Shown: positions 47,161-54,323 of the stretch, in pieces | Numbering within the stretch: position 1 is the stretch's first letter | Layout: the number at the start of each line of letters is the position of its first letter | From: a virus | Lineage: Duplodnaviria; Caudoviricetes | Length of the DNA stretch: 58,297 bases | Virus record (IMG/VR): IMGVR_UViG_3300024255_002562 | Location: 1 to 58,297 of that record | Reading direction: 5' to 3' (one strand) | Program-made: the position numbers and the translations under genes | Notes under the pieces: model-generated | What the model was told of the DNA's origin: nothing | Databases searched by the model: none | What the model saw: the letters and a program-made list of their open reading frames with translations, nothing else

Positions 47161-47399
47161 ACCGTTTTCCCTTTTTCTTTATTATCTTTGATATCAAAGT
47201 ATTTATCCATGAATCTATCAAAGGTATTAGCGTGACGTAAGTTTTTTCTAATCATACTTAGTAACTCCTTTGGAAAGCATAGCATACCTTTTTCTTCGAA
47301 TTTTTCAAGACTAATTTGTTTATTAACACTTCCTTTATTGACAAAAACTCCGCTCTTTTTGAGAGACAGGGTCCAATCTTCCATTTTAACTTGAGACAT
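47157..47399 (-). CDS. hypothetical protein
   Basis: 80 aa ORF overlapping neighbours. Confidence 0.5.
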   Translation of the reverse strand: MSQVKMEDWTLSLKKSGVFVNKGSVNKQISLEKFEEKGMLCFPKELLSMIRKNLRHANTFDRFMDKYFDIKDNKEKGKTV

Positions 47400-47886
47400 A
47401 TTCCATCCATTCTTTTGGGGGGTTGTGTATGTTAAGCAAAGAAGATGGTTCTCTCGGCTTTCTAGTTAAAAACATTCCGCATTTTGCAATAGACTTATCT
47501 CCTTTGTTGTAGTTACAAGGCTTGCAGCAGGCGACCATGTTTTCCCAAGTGTTCGCTTCTTTTTTGTTTAAGAATTTACTTACAGGTGTAACATGATCAA
47601 TAGTTGCGTCTGACCTGTTTAAATCTATATTGCAATATTGACACTGATAGTTATCTCTAGAAAGAATCGTTCTCTTTGTAGGTATCCTGTTTTTGTGCGG
47701 ATTGATAAACTTTGGATAAACCATAACGGCAGGAAGGGCAAAACTTTTAGTTTCAGACCAGATGCTGTCTTCATAGTAAGAAAGGACTCTCATACCGTTA
47801 TCTTTAAAAGAAAGAAGAAGACCTCTTCTAACGTTAATAATGGTTAAAGGCTGGTAAGCCACATTTAAAATTAAAGTTCTTTTCAT
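47386..47886 (-). CDS. HNH endonuclease (McrA-like)
   Basis: LILNVAYQPL, RDNYQCQYC, TIDHV.P, WENMVACCKPCNYNKG. Confidence 0.92.
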   Translation of the reverse strand: MKRTLILNVAYQPLTIINVRRGLLLSFKDNGMRVLSYYEDSIWSETKSFALPAVMVYPKFINPHKNRIPTKRTILSRDNYQCQYCNIDLNRSDATIDHVTPVSKFLNKKEANTWENMVACCKPCNYNKGDKSIAKCGMFLTRKPREPSSLLNIHNPPKEWMEYVSS

Positions 47887-47897
47887 GCCTTTTTCTT

Positions 47898-48206
47898 TTA
47901 TTTGTATAGTTGGTACTTTTTAAGTTTGTCCCTAGTAGTTTGATCTATAATAGGTTCTGTTGCTATTGATGTTAATTGATTACCAATATCCGGCTCCCTA
48001 AATTCGAAGCATTTAATATTCTCACTTGTGAGGTATTCTTTGATCCTCTGAAGCCTTATTTCGCTCTTAGATTCGATCAGGATCACAGAAGGGTGTTCAC
48101 TCATCTTTTCTTTTGAAGCGACCTCAATGGCTGCGTGGCACGATTGTACAGCTATTTGAGACTTTGACAAGTCTTTTCTTGTAAAAATGTAAATATATGG
48201 ATGGTT
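47898..48206 (-). CDS. Pth2-like peptidyl-tRNA hydrolase domain (in frame after the NADAR amber stop)
   Basis: YIYIFTRKDLSKSQIAVQSCHAA...FREPDIGNQLTSIA; the first strand lies upstream of the TTG at 48170 with no ATG after the TAG at 48207-48209. Confidence 0.7.
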   Translation of the reverse strand, partial: NHPYIYIFTRKDLSKSQIAVQSCHAAIEVASKEKMSEHPSVILIESKSEIRLQRIKEYLTSENIKCFEFREPDIGNQLTSIATEPIIDQTTRDKLKKYQLYK

Positions 48207-48668
48207 CTATCGCATTTCTTTTCTCAATTTCATTAAACATTCCCCTAATAGGTTTTGACCCCAATCGTTTATATTATCTAAAGCTTCGTCTACTCCGAAT
48301 CCAATTCCCCATATTCTATCATACGGCGAAGCTTCTACAAGAATTTTATGTTCAGAAGCATCTAAAGCTTCTTTGAAAGGTTCACATTCTCTATATTTTC
48401 TTCTTAGAGAATTCATCATGGCTGTTTCTTTAAAGCCGTTCCATTCTTTTTCATTAAATCCGCTTACTTTTCTTCCTAATTTTTTAGCGTCTCTAGGATG
48501 AGAAGTTTTTATAATTGCTTTATACGAATCAGAGTCTTTAAAAAAAGCCGCTTTCTCTAGCATAAACCATTTTTCTGAAGTTTCTTTTGTGTCTACTTGG
48601 TAGAAGTTTGAAAAAACTCCTCCCCAAAAAAAGATGTAATTGTCTTTGTTCATAATCTTTCCTTGCAT
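48207..48668 (-). CDS. NADAR (YbiA-like) family protein
   Basis: FFWG.FSNFY, SEKWFMLEKAAFF, AKKLGRKV, LVEASPYDRIWGIG, GQNLLGECLM. Confidence 0.93.
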   Translation of the reverse strand: MQGKIMNKDNYIFFWGGVFSNFYQVDTKETSEKWFMLEKAAFFKDSDSYKAIIKTSHPRDAKKLGRKVSGFNEKEWNGFKETAMMNSLRRKYRECEPFKEALDASEHKILVEASPYDRIWGIGFGVDEALDNINDWGQNLLGECLMKLRKEMR

Positions 48669-48817: not shown

Positions 48818-48889
48818 GTAGCGGAGGTGAGAATCGAACTCCTGTTTCTTGATAGGCAATCAAGCATAATACCATTATATCAATACTGC
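48818..48889 (-). tRNA. chimeric/pseudo tRNA-Gly(GCC)
   Basis: Anticodon arm CTTGA-TTGCCTA-TCAAG and T loop TTCGATT present; T stem and acceptor stem poorly paired. Confidence 0.6.
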
Positions 48890-48895
48890 TAAAAC

Positions 48896-49076: not shown

Positions 49077-49146
49077 TGCCGGTAAGGGGAATTGAACCAC
49101 CTATCTCGCCCCTAGATGAGACGTGTTTTACTTACACTATACCGGC
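49077..49146 (-). tRNA. non-canonical tRNA-like RNA, anticodon loop CAUCUAG (copy A)
   Basis: GCCGGTA/TACCGGC acceptor, 5-nt D loop without GG, CGTCT-CATCTAG-GGGCG, T loop TTCAATT. Confidence 0.7.
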
Positions 49147-49177: not shown

Positions 49178-50827
49178 TTATACTTCAACAAGTCGAAGAA
49201 GCTCTTGATCCATAGCTGCATTGAACAAGTCAGCAGCAGTCTCTACTTTTCCAGACATAATAAATTTCACGTTAGATGCTGAATATCCTGAAAGGTAGAA
49301 TACATTTTTAACATCACCATATGTTTCAAACTTAGTCTCACTTCGTGAACCATAGAATGAGTTAGGAATATTCCATAAAACAATCTTAAAGTTATTAATA
49401 TAATCTTCTGAAAAACCTGCTGATCTTAATTTACTTCTAGCGGATTCAACATTTGTCTTTCCAAGTTCGCTTGCATCAAATTCACCATCACTGATGCATA
49501 AAATGCCTTCTGGAAAATCTGACTCGCTAACTGTTTTCTTAAGGTTACAAAACAGATCAATAACACTTTGGAAGTTCGTTCCGCCATAAGCGTTTCCTAG
49601 ATCGTTAGTCCACTTTTGAGAAGGAGTTGATCCTTTCCATTTTACCATTTTGGCATTATCGTTAAATTCAATATAGTAATCCTTAAAATCACCATCAAGG
49701 AATTCATTGAAGTACAAGGCAATTGATTTTGCAATATCGTCTGAACTAAATTTAGTTCCAGTAGCTGTAGATTCCATTGATCCGGAAGTATCGCGAACTA
49801 CGATAAACTTTGAAACAACACCTTCTTTAGCTTTTGCTATTAACTCATAGAATTGCTTGTCAACAGTTTTAACAAAGTTACTTTCTCTGTTATTTCTTAG
49901 CTCACATAAACACTCATGAGCAAAGCCAGTGTACTTTACAGTCTCCTGTTTGTCAACCCATTCTGAGTATCTTTCTGACAGTCCTTGGTTTTTAAGGAAC
50001 TTACTTTTAACCAATAGATTTAAAGCACGACCATGAATTTTTCCAAAATCAATTCTGTCAAAACTTGACTGAGAGATTAGTTTTTGCCATTCATGTGCTG
50101 TTCCGCTTGCTTTTAACTTACGATATTTTCTATAACTTCCTGCGTCATTTTTTTTGCCAAAAAGATTTGAACAAATCCATTTCGCAATGATACAGTTAGC
50201 TTCCGCTTCAACAGTCTTAAGTTGTGTCTTAGAGCGGATTTGCGGCAAATACTTCTTCATTAAGTTAGATGTTTTATCATCAGACAGTAAAGAAAGAAGC
50301 AGATTAGAAAACCTTCCCCAATTTAATACCTTACCATCCCATCCGTGATAGACAAGATCATAACGCAACATAACAATCAAGTCCTTACAAGAACCGGCGG
50401 AGATAAACAGACCAATATTTTTCCAAAACAAATTTGGAGCAGTATTGTGTAGCCAAATCATCCGCATTGTTGATTCGTGCTTTAGTTCAGCACCAGATTG
50501 TACCGCTTCAGTCTTAATGCCCATACCAACGATATCAGTCTTACGACTAATCATTCTCATATAGATGGTAAACTTAACAAATGACTCCGGGTCTTCTGCG
50601 TACAGAATGCTACAGTCCTTTGCAATATCTGAATAACTACGAGGAGCTTTATACTCTCCGAGCTTTCCAAACTGATCAACAAATTCGTTGCCAGTCGTTT
50701 TGAATTTTTTAGCATTGTTGCCACTGACAGTTTCTGCGGACTTCTTAGATGCAGCACTGATAAAAGAGTTACCTTCTAGTGGTGCGTAAGTTTTAGTTCC
50801 GAGTGTTTTTTTCTTTGTTGTGAACAT
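49178..50827 (-). CDS. Ro60/TROVE-like vWA protein (DUF2828-type)
   Basis: N-terminal SGNNAKKFKTTGNEFVDQF, KYLP, IDFGKIHGRAL; vWA MIDAS VVRDTSGSM, GTNFQSVIDL, ISDGEFD, IVLWNI, LSGYS. Confidence 0.8.
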   Translation of the reverse strand: MFTTKKKTLGTKTYAPLEGNSFISAASKKSAETVSGNNAKKFKTTGNEFVDQFGKLGEYKAPRSYSDIAKDCSILYAEDPESFVKFTIYMRMISRKTDIVGMGIKTEAVQSGAELKHESTMRMIWLHNTAPNLFWKNIGLFISAGSCKDLIVMLRYDLVYHGWDGKVLNWGRFSNLLLSLLSDDKTSNLMKKYLPQIRSKTQLKTVEAEANCIIAKWICSNLFGKKNDAGSYRKYRKLKASGTAHEWQKLISQSSFDRIDFGKIHGRALNLLVKSKFLKNQGLSERYSEWVDKQETVKYTGFAHECLCELRNNRESNFVKTVDKQFYELIAKAKEGVVSKFIVVRDTSGSMESTATGTKFSSDDIAKSIALYFNEFLDGDFKDYYIEFNDNAKMVKWKGSTPSQKWTNDLGNAYGGTNFQSVIDLFCNLKKTVSESDFPEGILCISDGEFDASELGKTNVESARSKLRSAGFSEDYINNFKIVLWNIPNSFYGSRSETKFETYGDVKNVFYLSGYSASNVKFIMSGKVETAADLFNAAMDQELLRLVEV

Positions 50828-50922: not shown

Positions 50923-51036
50923 GGATTTCGTTTTACGTTGCTCTACCAGTTGAGCTACTTTGGTCTAGGACCAAAGATCAGATTCGAACTGATAACCTAC
51001 GGCTTAGAAGGCTAATTAACTTGCTGTTTGAAATCC
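50923..51036 (-). ncRNA. CAGCAA stem RNA unit 4 carrying a circularly permuted tRNA-Arg(UCU) (YrlA-like)
   Basis: GGATTTC-AAA-CAGCAA...GC-CTTCTAA-GCCGT-AGGTT-ATCAG-TTCGAAT-CTGAT-CTTTGGT-CCTAG-ACCAAAG-TA-GCTC-AACTGGTA-GAGC-A-ACG...GAAATCC-G. Confidence 0.85.
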
Positions 51037-51063
51037 TTTAACTTATTCGCGAAGCGAAAAAAC

Positions 51064-51130: not shown

Positions 51131-51150
51131 TATGCGAGCTTACGCTCAAT

Positions 51151-51219
51151 AATCAATAGTGGAATCGAACCACCAATCTCTCCTCTAGATGAGGAGTGCT
51201 TTTCTTAAGCTACAACGGC
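51151..51219 (-). tRNA. non-canonical tRNA-like RNA, anticodon loop CAUCUAG (copy B, unpaired acceptor)
   Basis: GCTT-AAGAA-AAGC D arm, CTCCT-CATCTAG-AGGAG, GGTGG-TTCGATT-CCACT; acceptor GCCGTTG vs ATTGATT does not pair. Confidence 0.65.
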
Positions 51220-51249
51220 TGAGTACCAACCCTACTGCGTTGTTATCTT

Positions 51250-51278
51250 ATTATATCTTACTTGCTACCGCAAGTCAA
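51250..51278 (-). promoter_or_regulatory. near-consensus sigma70 promoter with embedded palindrome
   Basis: TTGACT-17 nt-TATAAT; ACTTGC-N4-GCAAGT at 51260-51275 overlaps the spacer and -35. Confidence 0.85.
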
Positions 51279-51329
51279 TCTCTTTTTTGAATACTTTCTC
51301 AAGTTTTTGCATCCCGATTGCGGGATGAG

Positions 51330-51403
51330 CGATCCTAATCGGATTTGAACCGAAATTTCTATGCCCCAAACATAGCGGGTTATCCAAGTTACCCTACACC
51401 CTC
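51330..51403 (-). tRNA. chimeric/pseudo tRNA-Pro(TGG)
   Basis: D arm GGGT/ACCC, CTATG-TTTGGGG-CATAG, T loop TTCAAAT; acceptor GAGGGTG/TAGGATC has three purine mismatches. Confidence 0.65.
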
Positions 51404-51411
51404 ATGTGCGA

Positions 51412-51888
51412 TTAAATAGCGATTTCTTTTAACTCATCATCCGTTAGAATAAACCTATCTGTATTCAAATCCGTTATAAGTAATTCTACGTCAGCAGTAA
51501 TACAAGCAGCTATTTCTGTGCTTTCTTTTTTAAATTGTTTATTACTAGTAATTAAGGTGTGGCTAAAATAAGGACTACTGTAATCATCCATCCTTTTGTT
51601 TTTACCACGCAAACCAGTATTATATAACATTACATTTTCTTCTAACTCAATGACACGTACATTACAATCAATTCTCGCCCGACTGTCTTTAAAATGTTTC
51701 ATAAGTTTATCGTCGTAACTTTTCATCTTTAGGGCAAAGTCATGCATATATTTTTTTCTAATTTTTTCTTCTACAGAATCATATTGAATATCAACAGCAG
51801 AAGTAATATATCTCTTTTTTTGAGAAAAAGCACTTAAAGGAAAAAGCAATACACATGCAATTGATTGTACAAAGTTACGTCTTTTCAT
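51412..51888 (-). CDS. hypothetical protein with Tat signal
   Basis: MKRRNFVQSIACVLLFPLSAFS. Confidence 0.6.
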   Translation of the reverse strand: MKRRNFVQSIACVLLFPLSAFSQKKRYITSAVDIQYDSVEEKIRKKYMHDFALKMKSYDDKLMKHFKDSRARIDCNVRVIELEENVMLYNTGLRGKNKRMDDYSSPYFSHTLITSNKQFKKESTEIAACITADVELLITDLNTDRFILTDDELKEIAI

Positions 51889-51969
51889 AATTTATCCCCC
51901 ATCATCCATAAATCATAATGAGGAGATATTTCAACTATAGAATCGATATCCATTGTTTTTCCTAGTAAA

Positions 51970-52043
51970 TATTCCGAGCAAGATTCGAACTTGCGACCTA
52001 GTGGGTAGAAACCACTTGCTCTATTCCACTGAGCTACCGGAAC
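51970..52043 (-). tRNA. tRNA-Arg(TCT)
   Basis: GTTCCGG/TCGGAAT acceptor, GCTC/GAGC, AGTGG-TTTCTAC-CCACT, GCAAG-TTCGAAT-CTTGC; CCA not encoded. Confidence 0.9.
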
Positions 52044-52065
52044 TTGTTATGTTATTGTACTTTAC

Positions 52066-52644
52066 TTAGTCTTGAGCGTCAACTTTAAAATTGTTATGTT
52101 CAAGAATTTTTTTACAAAAATCAAGAAACTCATCAGGACTCATGTCATGTTTTGCTTGGTTTGCTGCTTTTATGCATATTCCAAGATTATCGATATCGTT
52201 TGACCCCCCTTTGCTGCGTGGGATTTTATGATCGAAAGCATAGCTTCTTGTTTTGTTAATATCTATATGTTCTCCAGTTAAGTAACATACTGGATTCTCA
52301 CCAAATTTATTAATAACATCCTGAACAGTAAAAGTGGGTTTGTTATATATTGTTTTCACTCTAAAAAAATTCCTTATCTTAATATGAAGTATGTCAGATG
52401 TTGTCTTCTTTGATTGTTTTATAGGGGTTTTATGAATGTAATCACCACTAAAACGCTCAATTTTCTTTTTATATTTATGCTGAAGTTTTACATTTTTTCT
52501 TCTTCTTAGACTATTTTTTTGTTTTTGACCTTTAGAGCAGTGATAAGATATTGTACTTTTTGAGCATTGCAATTCTTCTGAAATTTCCCTAAAGGACATC
52601 CCATTTTTACGCAATTCTAAAATTTGTTTTTTTAGTTCTGTCAT
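52066..52644 (-). CDS. HTH-HNH homing endonuclease
   Basis: LRKNGMSFREISEELQCSKSTISYH; CYLTG, FDHKIPRSKGGSNDIDNL..C...NQAK. Confidence 0.88.
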   Translation of the reverse strand: MTELKKQILELRKNGMSFREISEELQCSKSTISYHCSKGQKQKNSLRRRKNVKLQHKYKKKIERFSGDYIHKTPIKQSKKTTSDILHIKIRNFFRVKTIYNKPTFTVQDVINKFGENPVCYLTGEHIDINKTRSYAFDHKIPRSKGGSNDIDNLGICIKAANQAKHDMSPDEFLDFCKKILEHNNFKVDAQD

Positions 52645-52655
52645 TATTCAATCAT

Positions 52656-52964
52656 TTAGTCGTTAATAGCGACTACTTTTCCATAAACTTTATCTTCTGA
52701 AGTCCAGCCGTTGATTCTTTTTTTATTGTTTCCGATCTTGAAATAATACTTATCAGAATACTCTATTTCTTTAATAATGTGAACGTAATAAACTCCGTTT
52801 ACTTTACAGAAGACTATGTCTTCAACTCTTAAAGAAGAAAGCTCGACTTTTTCCAACGTAATCAACTGACCCGACTTTATTATCGGCTCCATGCTCCTAC
52901 CTTTTTGGCGAAAACTTACTGGCTTTTTTGATTTTAGAGCGTGCTTGTATTCTTCCCAATTCAT
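52656..52964 (-). CDS. S24/S26 peptidase-like protein
   Basis: KGRSMEPIIKSGQ, DIVFCKV, YYVH, IGNN. Confidence 0.7.
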   Translation of the reverse strand: MNWEEYKHALKSKKPVSFRQKGRSMEPIIKSGQLITLEKVELSSLRVEDIVFCKVNGVYYVHIIKEIEYSDKYYFKIGNNKKRINGWTSEDKVYGKVVAIND

Positions 52965-52987
52965 AGTTACTCCTTATTAAATTTAAG

Positions 52988-53047
52988 CAGAAGGATGACA
53001 ACAACTGTGTTCAAAACAGCGACCAAAGCCATTTGATAATTTCTTCC
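52988..53047 (-). pseudogene. tRNA-Ser(TGA) remnant lacking variable and T arms
   Basis: GGAAGAA...TCCTTCT-G acceptor, D loop AATGGCTT, GCTGT-TTTGAAC-ACAGT; no T loop. Confidence 0.45.
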
Positions 53048-53051
53048 GAAA

Positions 53052-53144
53052 CGAAAATGAAGAGAGTCGAACTCTTAATCCGACCCTTTCGGAGCGGATA
53101 CTGACTTAGCAGGTCAGCCGGAATAGCCACTTTCCATCACTTTC
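53052..53144 (-). tRNA. tRNA-Ser(GCT), long variable arm, atypical core
   Basis: GAAAGTG(A)/(T)CATTTTC-G, CTGAC-CTGCTAA-GTCAG, long V arm with GAAA loop, T loop TTCGACT. Confidence 0.8.
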
Positions 53145-53188
53145 GTGCGATCTTTTAATGTGGATCAGACATGCCTACGGAGGACCGT

Positions 53189-53256
53189 CTCCAAAACGAT
53201 GGGATCGAACCATCAATTAGCCATTCTCAGCAAACGAGTCGGAATTGAACCGACCT
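53189..53256 (-). pseudogene. two tandem isolated tRNA 3' fragments (T arm plus acceptor 3' strand)
   Basis: GTCGG-TTCAATT-CCGAC-TCGTTTG and GATGG-TTCGATC-CCATC-GTTTTGG, without upstream D/anticodon arms. Confidence 0.55.
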
Positions 53257-53265
53257 ATTTTTCTT

Positions 53266-53736
53266 TTATCTGTTTCGGACATTCCTGATCTGCTTCAGCA
53301 GATATTTAAGTCCAATATCTTTATTATACCACCAAGTTACTTTGGTTCCTATTGTTTTTGAGGTTATATATCCGTATTGTATGATTCCATTATATTTTCT
53401 CCAGTGTGTTGGACGGTAGCCTGATTCAACAAAATGGCGTATATTGATTCGTTCAATTTTATGAGAAATTGTATTCTCTTCAAAATATTCCTCAAGATAC
53501 CATTCTGTGAAGTGTCTCCATTCTAATATAATAGAATGTTTTGTAAACCCCTCTTCTCTAATGTATTGGGTTTTTCTTTTACTCTTCCAAGATTTTTGAT
53601 GACGGATAGGTTTATCATCCCAATTGTCAGGTAAATTTCTTGGACTTCTTTTTCCTCTGTGCCAATTTTCTTGATTGGCTCTTTTTTCTTGAATGGTTTT
53701 TGGACTGCGATAGTAGTTTTTCATTTCGTTCTCCAT
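53266..53736 (-). CDS. conserved phage hypothetical protein
   Basis: YRSPKTIQEKR...RGKR...LPDNWDD...KSWK..RKTQY pattern. Confidence 0.65.
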   Translation of the reverse strand: MENEMKNYYRSPKTIQEKRANQENWHRGKRSPRNLPDNWDDKPIRHQKSWKSKRKTQYIREEGFTKHSIILEWRHFTEWYLEEYFEENTISHKIERINIRHFVESGYRPTHWRKYNGIIQYGYITSKTIGTKVTWWYNKDIGLKYLLKQIRNVRNR

Positions 53737-53829: not shown

Positions 53830-53957
53830 CGATACATACACATACATCGAGAGTAGCTACGCCATAAGCGGACTATTCGTATAATCGGATTTTAAACTCT
53901 CTTGTCTCATGTTTACGTTCCGTAAGAAAACTAATAAAATAACTTCTCAAGTAAAAG

Positions 53958-54030
53958 TGCGTCAACTAGGAATCGAACCTAGATAACGAGTTCTTCAGAC
54001 TCGCGGCTTCCCAATATCGCCCATTGACGC
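53958..54030 (-). tRNA. tRNA-Phe(GAA)
   Basis: GCGTCAA/TTGACGC-A, CGAGT-CTGAAGA-ACTCG, CTAGG-TTCGATT-CCTAG. Confidence 0.88.
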
Positions 54031-54034
54031 CTGC

Positions 54035-54318
54035 GTCTGAATTTGGTAATAAGGCTCAGACAAACCTCATGCCACTTTAAGCAGCAAGAGCAACATTTCT
54101 GTTTGCATTTACGTTTCGATAGATTTTTTCCGTAGCCCTTCTATCAACTACGACATGCAACTATTACTTCATTAGCCAATCGATACCTGTATCGCCCATA
54201 TAATTACTGTAAGTGGACGATAGCGGAGTTGAACCGCTGTCTTGATCTACTTCTATAATAGTCTCTACATGCTTGTCCGGCTTTATAAAACCGGCAAAAA
54301 CTTAACGAGGTCTTGACC
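54035..54318 (-). ncRNA. ssrA: two-piece (circularly permuted) tmRNA, tag ANRNVALAA
   Basis: The acceptor piece (GAC-AGCGG-TTCAACT-CCGCT-ATCGTCC-A, ending 54214) precedes the coding piece (GGGCGAT.. from 54197, G3-U70 pair); tag ORF GCA..GCT GCT TAA at 54106-54077. Outer ends approximate. Confidence 0.88.
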
Positions 54319-54323
54319 CGTAG

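What the first reader, a model, noticed from the sequence alone, without database searches (positions are those of the whole stretch)
47898..48668. NADAR and Pth2-like hydrolase joined in frame across a single UAG (candidate amber readthrough)
Seen in sequence: NADAR ends ...KEMR-TAG (48209-48207) and the same frame continues NHPYIYIFTRKDLSKSQIAVQSCHAA. The YIYIFTRKDL strand is typical of Pth2-family N-termini and lies upstream of the first TTG start. A complete domain therefore needs readthrough of the UAG (from NADAR or from the ATG-CGA-TAG mini-start) or a non-canonical ATT start. TAG is a normal stop elsewhere in the window. Inference: Pth2 output may be gated by termination efficiency or suppression, which would fit an enzyme that rescues peptidyl-tRNA; it lies just downstream of the tRNA-mimic operon.
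Basis: partly seen in the sequence, partly recalled or inferred. Interest (0 to 1): 0.72.

Follow-up and report, generated by a model that had tools for sequence, protein, structure and literature searches.

The report
Amber-gated phage tRNA hydrolase gene
A marine phage gene for a Pth2-type tRNA hydrolase carries a stop codon (UAG) as its third codon, a feature shared by many large phages that also encode a matching stop-codon-reading tRNA, so the enzyme is probably made only when that tRNA is active.

Summary
On the minus strand the NADAR ORF ends KEMR-TAG (48209-48207), and the same frame continues for 102 codons as a Pth2-fold protein. Its first beta-strand lies upstream of the first canonical start, TTG 48170. 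Three independent assemblies carry the TAG unchanged.

The TAG is a family trait. Of 98 homologue clusters (134 classified loci), 51 begin ATG + 1-8 codons + TAG with no other start before the strand, and 11 more have the leader plus a later start. One cluster uses TGA and one TAA; five have mid-gene TAGs. A tRNA-CUA lies within 2.5 kb in 60 of 98 clusters. It occurs in 10 of 10 complete genomes with an amber-led gene, and was not found in 2 with ordinary starts. The TGA leader sits beside a tRNA-UCA and the TAA leader beside a tRNA-UUA.

Best reading: translation starts at ATG 48215 (Met-Arg-UAG) and needs a phage suppressor tRNA. The NADAR fusion is incidental: the closest relative keeps only NADAR's last 11 codons as the leader.

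The window holds no clear tRNA-CUA, but that relative's contig does. I found no paper describing this. The XacN1 paper states that its suppressor tRNAs' targets are unknown.

The parts
48207..48668 (-). NADAR-domain ORF (153 aa). Its stop codon is the TAG at 48209-48207. A second ATG at 48653 behind AAGGAAAG may be the true start.
   Evidence: Pfam NADAR 2e-38, 132.6 bits.
48207..48233 (-). Leader of the Pth2-like gene: ATG(48233) AAA TTG AGA AAA GAA ATG(48215) CGA TAG(48209). The purine tract GAGAAAAGAA precedes the second ATG, the probable start (Met-Arg-UAG).
   Evidence: The leader is conserved in L004 (ATG AAA TTA AGG AAA GAA GCA ATG TTC TAG), where NADAR is absent. The nucleotide alignment with L004 begins 36 nt upstream of the TAG. 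An SD-like motif precedes the leader ATG in 23 of 32 cluster representatives.
48207..48209 (-). In-frame amber codon: codon 3 of the Pth2-like gene and, at the same time, the stop codon of NADAR. It is followed by A (TAG-AAC).
   Evidence: Unchanged in 3 independent runs. A homologous TAG is present in 62 of 98 clusters. The base after TAG is A in 21, G in 9, C in 2 and T in 0 of 32 representatives.
47898..48206 (-). Pth2-fold hydrolase domain (102 codons plus TAA). Beta-strand 1 is residues 4-10 (YIYIFTR).
   Evidence: Pfam PTH2. PDB profile hits to Pth2: 24bt_A 6.7e-8, 2zv3_A 1.3e-5. AlphaFold model pLDDT 96.1. The Foldseek matches with E below 0.001 are Pth2 chains plus one protein of unknown function, TMq 0.70-0.79.
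48168..48170 (-). First canonical start codon (TTG) after the TAG. Rejected as the start because it lies after beta-strand 1.
47386..47886 (-). HNH endonuclease gene directly downstream. It is also present downstream of the gene in L004.
   Evidence: Pfam HNH 5.8e-10.
48818..48890 (-). Low-scoring tRNA-Gly(GCC)-like element upstream of NADAR, 90% identical to the tRNA-Gly of L004. It marks the upstream edge of the stretch where NADAR here and a tRNA array in L004 replace each other.

Best explanation
The Pth2-like gene is an amber-gated gene. Translation starts at ATG 48215-48213 (possibly also ATG 48233), reads CGA and meets UAG as codon 3. Without a suppressor the ribosome releases a two-residue peptide and no enzyme is made. 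The next canonical start (TTG 48170) would give a protein without its first core beta-strand. When a phage-encoded amber suppressor tRNA (anticodon CUA) is present and charged, UAG is decoded and the full enzyme of about 105 residues is made. Ribosomes finishing NADAR reach the same UAG in frame, so a NADAR-Pth2 fusion would be a by-product. It is not the point of the arrangement. Shown by comparison: the conserved leader stop, its match to the suppressor anticodon, and the physical linkage of the gene to the suppressor tRNA gene. Inferred: that the window's own phage carries such a tRNA outside this 58-kb fragment, which residue is inserted, and the purpose. The most likely purpose is to couple a tRNA 3'-end hydrolase to suppressor activity, as a timer, an AND gate or a feedback loop.
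For: (1): 137 loci were examined, 134 classified and 3 dropped (L226, L232, L234), giving 98 clusters at 90% identity.
- 51 clusters have ATG + 1-8 codons + TAG with no ATG/GTG/TTG before strand 1.
- 1 (L008) has a long in-frame ORF, then TAG, with no start after it.
- 11 have the TAG leader plus a later start.
- 33 are ordinary.
(2): the leader is ATG plus one codon in 17 of 32 representatives and 1-4 codons in 28 of 32. An SD-like motif precedes the leader ATG in 23 of 32.
(3) Mid-domain TAGs, with protein similarity continuing after them, occur in 5 clusters (L011-14, L042, L141, L231, L293).
(4) Covariation: L026/L029 have the leader MNTNHEA-TGA, and L029 has a tRNA-UCA in its locus. L230 has the leader MGH-TAA with a tRNA-UUA directly upstream. 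Every TAG-leader cluster with a suppressor in its locus has CUA (36 clusters).
(5) A tRNA-CUA lies within 2.5 kb of the gene in 60 of 98 clusters. In the first set it was 26 of 46, against at most 6 of 46 for any other anticodon.
(6) In 10 of 10 complete genomes with an amber-led gene a tRNA-CUA was found: CBB, RAS14, Xoo-sp13, G001, G002; GAP32, XacN1, LR756511, G004; RsoM2USA. RaK2 and phiAS5, which have ordinary starts, showed none.
(7) The five tRNA-CUA genes drawn all have the canonical loop YU-CUA-AA.
(8) There is no genome-wide recoding. In CBB and RAS14 the leader pattern is no commoner for TAG than for TAA or TGA (CBB 12/157, 32/420, 15/228; RAS14 20/215, 31/326, 17/247).
(9) The closest relative L004 (72% identity) keeps the leader without NADAR, and its contig has a tRNA-CUA.
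(10) Beta-strand 1 lies before the TTG start.
Against: No canonical tRNA-CUA was found in the 58,297-base window, which is the whole record. The YTCTAAR motif is at chance level (76 matches against 73 expected). So the suppressor of this particular phage is unseen.

There is no protein, ribosome-profiling or reporter evidence anywhere. The one RNA run covers only 47652-47981, not the junction.

24 of the 33 ordinary-start clusters also have a tRNA-CUA next to the gene, so the linkage cannot be explained by gating alone.

In 19 of the 51 TAG-leader clusters no suppressor is seen in the locus; many of these are contigs of 1-2 kb.

Clusters are related by descent, so the counts are not independent events. 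The TGA and TAA cases are one lineage each.

The loci were gathered with a few peptide patterns (mostly FREPDIGN), so they sample one part of the family.
Confidence: 0.8

Rival explanations
1. The functional product is a NADAR-Pth2 fusion protein made by leaky or suppressed readthrough of the NADAR stop codon. The two domains work as one enzyme.
For: The two ORFs are in the same frame, separated by one TAG. L008 also has a long in-frame upstream ORF ending at the TAG. If the UAG is suppressed, the fusion is made as a matter of course.
Against: None of the 10 homologues longer than 180 aa has a NADAR domain: 7 are fusions with an HD-like domain and 3 have other extensions. L004 has lost NADAR but keeps its last 11 codons as the leader with both ATGs. 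In 60 of 62 TAG-leader clusters, all but the window's own and L004's, the upstream partner is a 1-8 codon mini-ORF and not a domain.
Confidence: 0.08
2. The UAG is not decoded. The mini-ORF is a start-stop leader, and ribosomes reinitiate just after it at a non-canonical codon (such as ATT 48194 in the window), or the gene starts at TTG 48170.
For: Very short leader ORFs ending next to the coding region resemble translational coupling. Codons after the TAG are often ATT/ATC/GTT/GTA. No suppressor is seen in the window.
Against: Mid-gene TAGs in 5 clusters cannot be bypassed by reinitiation. The leader stop type matches the neighbouring suppressor anticodon for TAG, TGA and TAA. The codon after the stop is not conserved and is often not near-cognate (AAC, ACT, CAC, GAA, AGA, CTA). 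A TTG start deletes beta-strand 1.
Confidence: 0.07
3. The phage uses a genome-wide alternative code in which TAG is a sense codon (code 15 type). This gene is just one of many recoded genes.
For: Recoded phages with suppressor tRNAs are well documented (preprint 10.1101/2021.08.26.457843, passages read). Only 58 kb of this genome is visible. Some uncultured relatives have two TAGs in the gene.
Against: In the window TAG ends 9 of 78 long ORFs, and this is the only TAG joining two long open frames. The two other leader-like TAG cases in the window have ordinary ATG starts 5-6 codons on. CBB and RAS14 show no TAG excess. The XacN1 paper found nothing behind 18 amber stops (PMC5852040, passages read). 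The TAG is strongly concentrated at codons 2-9, which points to a switch and not to free use as a sense codon.
Confidence: 0.04
4. It is a pseudogene, a recent nonsense mutation or an assembly error.
For: A single in-frame stop is the usual mark of a broken gene.
Against: The sequence is identical in three independent runs. A TAG sits at the same place in L004 (72% identity) and in 62 of 98 clusters. The domain downstream is intact, with invariant residues kept and a confident fold.
Confidence: 0.01

Closest known systems
Peptidyl-tRNA hydrolase 2 (Pth2, PF01981; archaeal and eukaryotic, e.g. PDB 2zv3, 3erj, 1xty, 1q7s/Bit1)
   Same: Same alpha/beta fold over the full length (Foldseek TMq 0.70-0.79). 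Profile-to-sequence hits 6.7e-8 to 1e-2. It shares the N-terminal motif (hydrophobic strand)-R-x-D-L...Q..H-A.
   Different: Only 12-23% identity. The Pfam score is barely above the cut-off (23.9 against 23). It has its own invariant F-R-E-P-D-I-G-N motif where Pth2 has K-D-A-G-x-T-Q. It is almost confined to large phages: 1 hit in 185,579 species genomes, on a 427-kb contig. Activity and substrate are untested.
Stop-codon recoding in phages with suppressor tRNAs (code 15 or code 4 crAss-like, Lak and other phages)
   Same: A phage-encoded suppressor tRNA reads an in-frame stop codon in phage genes. The authors proposed it as a regulator of expression timing (10.1101/2021.08.26.457843, passages read).
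   Different: There the stop is used as a sense codon throughout many late genes. Here the genomes otherwise use the standard code. The stop sits at codons 2-9 of a very small set of tRNA-related genes, next to the suppressor gene itself.
prfB (RF2) autoregulation by an in-frame UGA near the 5' end (recalled, not from a call)
   Same: An early in-frame stop codon makes the yield of a translation factor depend on how that stop is read.
   Different: prfB needs a +1 frameshift, and its product reads the stop itself. Here the frame is unchanged, a tRNA reads the stop, and no feedback by the product has been shown.
Synthetic suppressor-tRNA feed-forward 'leak dampener' (PMC7969014; search listing and start of abstract seen)
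   Same: A target gene is made dependent on a co-expressed suppressor tRNA, giving an AND gate with low leak.
   Different: That circuit is engineered. This would be a natural counterpart found across many phage lineages.
Lambda bar minigenes and Pth (recalled, not from a call)
   Same: A two-codon ORF followed by a stop is the classic source of peptidyl-tRNA drop-off that Pth must clear. 17 of 32 leaders here are exactly ATG + one codon + stop.
   Different: bar minigenes are not fused in frame to a hydrolase gene. Any role of drop-off here is speculation.

Membership tests
Pth2 (PF01981) peptidyl-tRNA hydrolase | Match to the family profile above the curated cut-off | tested here: met
   23.9 bits against a cut-off of 23, profile positions 4-114 of 115. 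This is marginal. A profile of 30 family members hits solved Pth2 chains at 6.7e-8 and 1.3e-5.
Pth2 (PF01981) peptidyl-tRNA hydrolase | Pth2 alpha/beta fold | tested here: met
   Model pLDDT 96.1. The 12 Foldseek matches listed with E below 0.001 are 11 Pth2 chains plus 2gax (unknown function), TMq 0.70-0.79.
Pth2 (PF01981) peptidyl-tRNA hydrolase | Conservation of the active-site residues of Pth2 | tested here: inconclusive
   R10, D12, Q21, H24 and E71-P72-D73 are invariant or nearly so within the phage family. E71 aligns with the D of the Pth2 K-D-A-G motif. I did not verify from any call which residues are catalytic in Pth2.
Pth2 (PF01981) peptidyl-tRNA hydrolase | Hydrolysis of peptidyl-tRNA | not testable with these tools
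   Needs an enzyme assay.
Suppressor-tRNA-dependent (recoded) gene | In-frame stop conserved among homologues, with coding conservation on both sides or no alternative start | tested here: met
   51 of 98 clusters have a leader TAG and no other start, and 5 clusters have mid-gene TAGs.
Suppressor-tRNA-dependent (recoded) gene | Cognate suppressor tRNA encoded in the same genome | tested here: inconclusive
   For the window: none found in the 58-kb fragment. For relatives: met, in 10 of 10 complete genomes and on the contig of the closest relative.
Suppressor-tRNA-dependent (recoded) gene | Stop codon type co-varies with the suppressor anticodon | tested here: met
   TAG with CUA in 36 clusters, TGA with UCA in 1 and TAA with UUA in 1. 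There were no mismatched pairs.
Suppressor-tRNA-dependent (recoded) gene | Amino acid inserted at the stop, shown in the protein | not testable with these tools
   Needs proteomics.
Genome-wide TAG reassignment (code 15) | Many genes interrupted by TAG, and TAG not used as a terminator | tested here: not met
   Window: TAG ends 9 of 78 long ORFs and joins long frames only once. CBB and RAS14 show no TAG excess.
NADAR (PF08719) | Match to the family profile above the cut-off | tested here: met
   132.6 bits against 35.1, profile positions 11-163 of 163, reaching the last residue before the TAG.
prfB-type autoregulatory recoding | Frameshift at the early stop | tested here: not met
   The coding frame is the same before and after the stop.

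The most novel reading that the evidence does not exclude
Large standard-code phages carry a dedicated circuit. It consists of a suppressor tRNA plus a small regulon of tRNA 3'-end enzymes: the Pth2-like hydrolase, a partner with a CCA-enzyme-type HD domain, and a third protein of about 80 aa. Each opens with Met, a few codons and the cognate stop. The suppressor's main natural job would then be to switch these genes on. Alternatively, the hydrolase acts back on the suppressor and holds its charged level at a set point. This would answer what suppressor tRNAs in such phages are for. The circuit may also be the seed from which genome-wide stop-codon recoding evolved.
Probability: 0.4. Interest if true: 0.92.

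Novelty: new variant of a known kind. Interest (0 to 1): 0.85.

Why it matters
1. It gives a concrete, testable target for the amber suppressor tRNAs of standard-code jumbo phages. The XacN1 paper states that no target could be identified (PMC5852040, passages read).

2. It would be a natural suppressor-gated gene switch with a stereotyped design: the stop at codon 2-9, a purine after it, and the tRNA gene next door. Synthetic biology built the same circuit independently.

3. It links the suppressor tRNA to enzymes that act on tRNA 3' ends. This hints that suppression and tRNA hygiene or repair are one functional module.

4. It corrects annotation. The gene is truncated, split or missing in deposited records of CBB, GAP32, RAS14, RsoM2USA and Arash.

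5. It may be an early stage on the route to stop-codon recoding.

Tried and rejected
- blastn of the locus against the phage collection gave no match.
- A suppressor tRNA was sought in the window with ARAGORN at default and relaxed settings and with Rfam at gathering and E-value thresholds. No canonical tRNA-CUA was found.
- A tRNA-like gene at c49077-49146 (Rfam tRNA 37.1 bits) has CUA inside an abnormal 6- or 8-nt anticodon loop. I could not make it a credible suppressor.
- The YTCTAAR hit at 51003 belongs to a tRNA-like element whose anticodon reads UCU.
- No NADAR-Pth2 fusion was found among 10 longer homologues.
- Crude whole-genome scans of CBB and RAS14 found no further convincing amber-led gene beyond the Pth2-like gene. 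The criterion is weak and could miss some.
- The identity of the suppressor tRNAs is unclear: there is no close paralogue in 6 genomes (best 0.61-0.79 identity to various tRNAs), so the inserted residue is unknown.
- The third amber-led family has no Pfam or PHROG hit and no informative Atlas hit.
- The profile scan of viral contigs returned no new loci, because only one peptide pattern was used.
- The strict suppressor pattern found nothing in G005-G008. G005-G007 are 5-28% complete and G008 is 74% complete. The same pattern also missed the RsoM2USA tRNA that Rfam plus ARAGORN then found.
- For phiAS5, two long tRNA-like matches near 181 kb were not fetched.
- The RNA run X21 has two 151-nt contigs at 47652-47802 and 47831-47981 only, which says nothing about the junction.
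- The earlier-findings tool was not open.
- Supplementary tables of the XacN1 paper (the tRNA list) could not be seen.
Full report
**The observation**

On the minus strand the NADAR ORF (48668..48207) ends ...KEMR followed by TAG at 48209-48207. The same frame runs on for 102 codons (NHPYIYIFTRKDLSKSQIAVQSCHAA...) to TAA at 47900-47898. The first canonical start after the TAG is TTG 48170, the L of RKDL. Two in-frame ATGs lie just before the TAG, at 48233 and 48215: ATG AAA TTG AGA AAA GAA ATG CGA TAG.

Pfam gives NADAR at 132.6 bits and PTH2 at 23.9 bits (cut-off 23). The PTH2 match covers profile positions 4-114 of 115, so the domain begins right after the TAG.

TAG is a normal terminator elsewhere in the window. 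It ends 9 of 78 long ORFs, and this is the only place where a TAG joins two open frames of 60 or more codons. Contigs from three other sequencing runs cover the junction with no difference (X3 47600-48396, X4 47907-48536, X5 47992-48538). The TAG is therefore not an error. The window is the whole record, a 58,297-base fragment of 34% G+C from seawater metagenomes.

**What the downstream protein is**

A profile of 30 family members hits solved Pth2 structures over their full length (24bt_A 6.7e-8, 2zv3_A 1.3e-5, 1rzw 1.7e-4). The AlphaFold model has pLDDT 96.1 and pTM 0.88. Strand 1 is at residues 4-10 (YIYIFTR), upstream of the TTG. The 12 Foldseek matches listed with E below 0.001 are 11 Pth2 chains (MJ0051, AF2095, PH1539, TA0108, Sulfolobus Pth2, human Bit1) plus 2gax, a protein of unknown function, with TMq 0.70-0.79.

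The protein is a divergent member of the Pth2 fold with its own invariant F-R-E-P-D-I-G-N motif. The family is close to phage-only. One scan of 185,579 species genomes gave a single hit, on a 427-kb contig.

**The in-frame stop is a family trait**

tblastn against the phage collection found 45 records, mostly jumbo phages, with alignments that start at query residue 1-9. I collected 43 IMG/VR loci, 13 loci from named phage records, 1 genome-collection locus and 80 metagenome loci. In each I walked upstream in frame from the conserved Q..H motif.

Of 137 loci, counting the window's own, 134 could be classified; L226, L232 and L234 were dropped because their ends are cut. They fall into 98 clusters at 90% identity:

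| Class | Clusters |
|---|---|
| ATG + 1-8 codons + TAG, no ATG/GTG/TTG before strand 1 | 51 |
| Long in-frame upstream ORF ending at the TAG (L008) | 1 |
| TAG leader plus a later start codon | 11 |
| Leader ending in TGA | 1 |
| Leader ending in TAA | 1 |
| Ordinary start | 33 |

Five clusters have a TAG in the middle of the domain, with similarity continuing after it: L011-14, L141 and L231 in addition to the leader TAG, and L042 and L293 with ordinary starts.

Among 32 leader representatives:
- The leader is ATG plus one codon in 17, and 1-4 codons in 28.
- The base after TAG is A in 21, G in 9, C in 2 and T in 0.
- A Shine-Dalgarno-like motif precedes the leader ATG in 23.

Cultured phages show the same leader: CBB and GAP32 (MAQ-TAG), Arash (ML-TAG), RsoM2USA (ML-TAG), ME3 (MT-TAG) and RAS14 (MK-TAG). 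Their deposited annotations truncate, split or omit the gene. In RAS14 a conserved N-terminal segment lies upstream of the annotated GTG start and can be reached only through the MK-TAG leader.

**Linkage to suppressor tRNAs**

ARAGORN finds a tRNA with anticodon CUA inside the 5-kb locus in 60 of 98 clusters, often directly before or after the gene. In the first set of 46 clusters it was present in 26, against at most 6 for any other anticodon.

All 10 complete genomes with an amber-led gene that I searched have a tRNA-CUA: CBB, RAS14, Xoo-sp13, G001, G002; GAP32, XacN1, LR756511, G004; and RsoM2USA. The five I drew have a canonical YU-CUA-AA loop on different backbones.

RaK2 and phiAS5, whose Pth2-like genes have ordinary starts, showed no tRNA-CUA. 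Two long matches in phiAS5 were not fetched.

The stop type co-varies with the anticodon:
- L026/L029 have the leader MNTNHEA-TGA, and L029 has a tRNA-UCA.
- L230 has the leader MGH-TAA with a tRNA-UUA about 60 nt upstream.
- Every TAG-leader cluster with a suppressor in view has CUA.

**Controls**

In CBB (378 kb) and RAS14 (320 kb) I looked for the pattern 'ATG within 10 codons, then a stop, then an open frame of 80 or more codons with no start in its first 5 codons'. It is no commoner for TAG than for TAA or TGA (CBB 12/157, 32/420, 15/228; RAS14 20/215, 31/326, 17/247). These phages are therefore not recoded genome-wide.

In the window the figures are 3/43, 3/89 and 3/57. The other two TAG cases have ordinary ATG starts 5-6 codons further on.

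**The window in particular**

The closest relative, L004 (72% protein identity), has ATG AAA TTA AGG AAA GAA GCA ATG TTC TAG before THPYVYIFTRKDL but has no NADAR gene. A tRNA array fills the space, and only the last 11 NADAR codons (CLMKLRKEAMF) remain. The nucleotide alignment between the two begins 36 nt upstream of the TAG. So the 3' end of NADAR doubles as the ribosome-binding region and leader of the Pth2-like gene, and NADAR itself is dispensable for the arrangement.

None of 10 longer homologues is a NADAR fusion.

The L004 contig carries a canonical tRNA-CUA about 20 kb upstream of its Pth2-like gene. The window ends 10 kb upstream of its own gene and has no sequence similar to that region.

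Within the window I found no credible suppressor. The only candidate, a tRNA-like gene at c49077-49146, has an abnormal anticodon loop.

**Other amber-led genes and the likely function**

In the same loci two further families open with Met, a few codons and TAG.
- One is an HD-like protein (phrog_14850): L008 MT-TAG, L044 MTSDTNL-TAG, RsoM2USA MKS-TAG.
- The other is an unannotated family of about 80 aa: L032, L034, L039.

Counting all open frames in these loci, leader-like cases make up 58 of 300 for TAG, against 24 of 327 for TGA and 17 of 372 for TAA.

The HD-like protein is also the commonest fusion partner of the Pth2-like domain, on either side of it. The Atlas model of it superposes on the HD domain of CCA-adding enzyme / poly(A) polymerase family proteins at TM 0.76-0.80. 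That is a lead, not a proof.

The neighbourhoods are rich in tRNA genes and tRNA enzymes. I infer that the module works on tRNA 3' ends. The window has neither of the two extra families.

**Mechanism and rivals**

The best-supported account is suppressor-dependent translation from the ATG-CGA-TAG start.
- Reinitiation after a start-stop leader fails to explain the mid-gene TAGs and the three-way match between stop and anticodon.
- A required NADAR fusion is contradicted by L004 and by the architectures of relatives.
- Genome-wide recoding is contradicted by TAG usage.
- Pseudogenisation is contradicted by conservation.

Why the stop sits at codons 2-9 is inferred. An early stop wastes only a tiny peptide and gives a clean on/off switch. 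Termination on very short nascent chains may also be inefficient, which would favour the tRNA; this last point is recalled, not tested.

24 of the 33 ordinary-start clusters still sit beside a tRNA-CUA. The tie between enzyme and suppressor is therefore functional as well as regulatory. The possibilities are clearing peptidyl-tRNA produced when UAG termination is disturbed, tRNA 3'-end repair, or feedback on the charged suppressor. The data do not choose among them.

**Literature**

Eight full-text searches found no paper linking a suppressor tRNA to a Pth2-like or peptidyl-tRNA hydrolase gene, or describing an N-terminal amber switch in phages.
- The XacN1 paper reports two CUA suppressor tRNAs per terminal repeat and says that read-through of 18 amber stops revealed no target (PMC5852040, passages). 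XacN1 has the MK-TAG leader before its HD-Pth2 fusion, followed by an ATG 5 codons on.
- Passages of PMC6102473, PMC13037316 and the recoding preprint mention no such hydrolase link.
- Supplements could not be seen, and papers outside the library may exist.

**Limits**

All of this is comparative inference. No protein or translation data exist. The suppressor of this phage is unseen. The inserted residue and the enzyme's substrate are unknown. Clusters are not independent events, and the TGA and TAA cases are single lineages.

Noticed in passing
window 53957-54320 (-): Phage-encoded two-piece (permuted) tmRNA. Rfam tmRNA_permuted scores 85.1 bits (gathering 47) and beta_tmRNA 74 bits. ARAGORN gives the tag peptide ANRNVALAA. 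It overlaps a tRNA-Phe(GAA) call at 53957-54030.
   Followed up: partly
window 49077-49146 (-): tRNA-like gene (Rfam tRNA 37.1 bits) with good acceptor and T arms but an abnormal anticodon arm (TCTC-A-TCTAGGGG-C-GAGA). The loop is 6 or 8 nt long and contains CUA. It is not a credible suppressor as it stands, and its function is unknown.
   Followed up: partly
window 50934-51042 (-) and 49178-50827 (-): A tRNA-like element in which the 3' half is followed by a 5' half (GACCAAAGTAGCTCAACTGGTAGAGCA). It gives a sub-threshold YrlA (Y RNA-like) hit of 37.1 bits (gathering 69). It lies just upstream of a 549-aa ORF with DUF7788, so a Ro/Y-RNA-like pair is possible.
   Followed up: partly
window 51150-53308 (-): A cluster of tRNA and degenerate tRNA-like genes: Arg-UCU twice, Ser-GCU, plus low-scoring ones with odd loops at 51331-51417 and 53230-53308.
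   Followed up: no
L008 2835-3422, L044 1902-2471, L136 3406-3972: An HD-like protein (phrog_14850) also opens with Met, 1-6 codons and TAG when it is a separate gene. It is the usual fusion partner of the Pth2-like domain, N-terminal in RAS14, Xoo-sp13 and XacN1 and C-terminal in L026. Its Atlas model resembles the HD domain of CCA-adding enzymes.
   Followed up: partly
L032 1780-2016, L034 1804-2037, L039 2091-2339: A third amber-led family of about 80 aa (VFHFNK...GQTFYV.H...GFSTKETPD..HTKG) next to tRNA-CUA genes. It has no Pfam or PHROG match.
   Followed up: partly
L022 1741-, L024 1715-, L025 1742-, L284/L286: A second copy of the Pth2-like 5' end (leader, TAG, INQKLIIITRRDL...) runs into an HNH-like ORF of about 245 aa directly upstream of the intact gene. 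This looks like a homing-endonuclease insertion or a duplication of the gene's 5' end.
   Followed up: no
L230 2115-2188 and following gene: In a 26.6% G+C contig an ochre suppressor tRNA (UUA) sits about 60 nt before an MGH-TAA-led Pth2-like gene. The gene itself ends in TAA, followed 5 codons later by TAG.
   Followed up: partly
L080 c17429-17503 (RAS14); L088 c240-311 (G001): RAS14 also has a tRNA with anticodon UUA, and G001 has one with UCA, besides their tRNA-CUA. Targets were not sought.
   Followed up: no
L134 3810-3884 (Salmonella phage Arash): ARAGORN reads the tRNA annotated in the record as tRNA-Phe with anticodon CUA.
   Followed up: no
L214 (427-kb contig in a MAG labelled Thermoplasmatota): This contig carries the phage-type Pth2-like gene followed directly by tRNA-CUA and other tRNAs. 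It may be a huge phage binned with an archaeal MAG.
   Followed up: no
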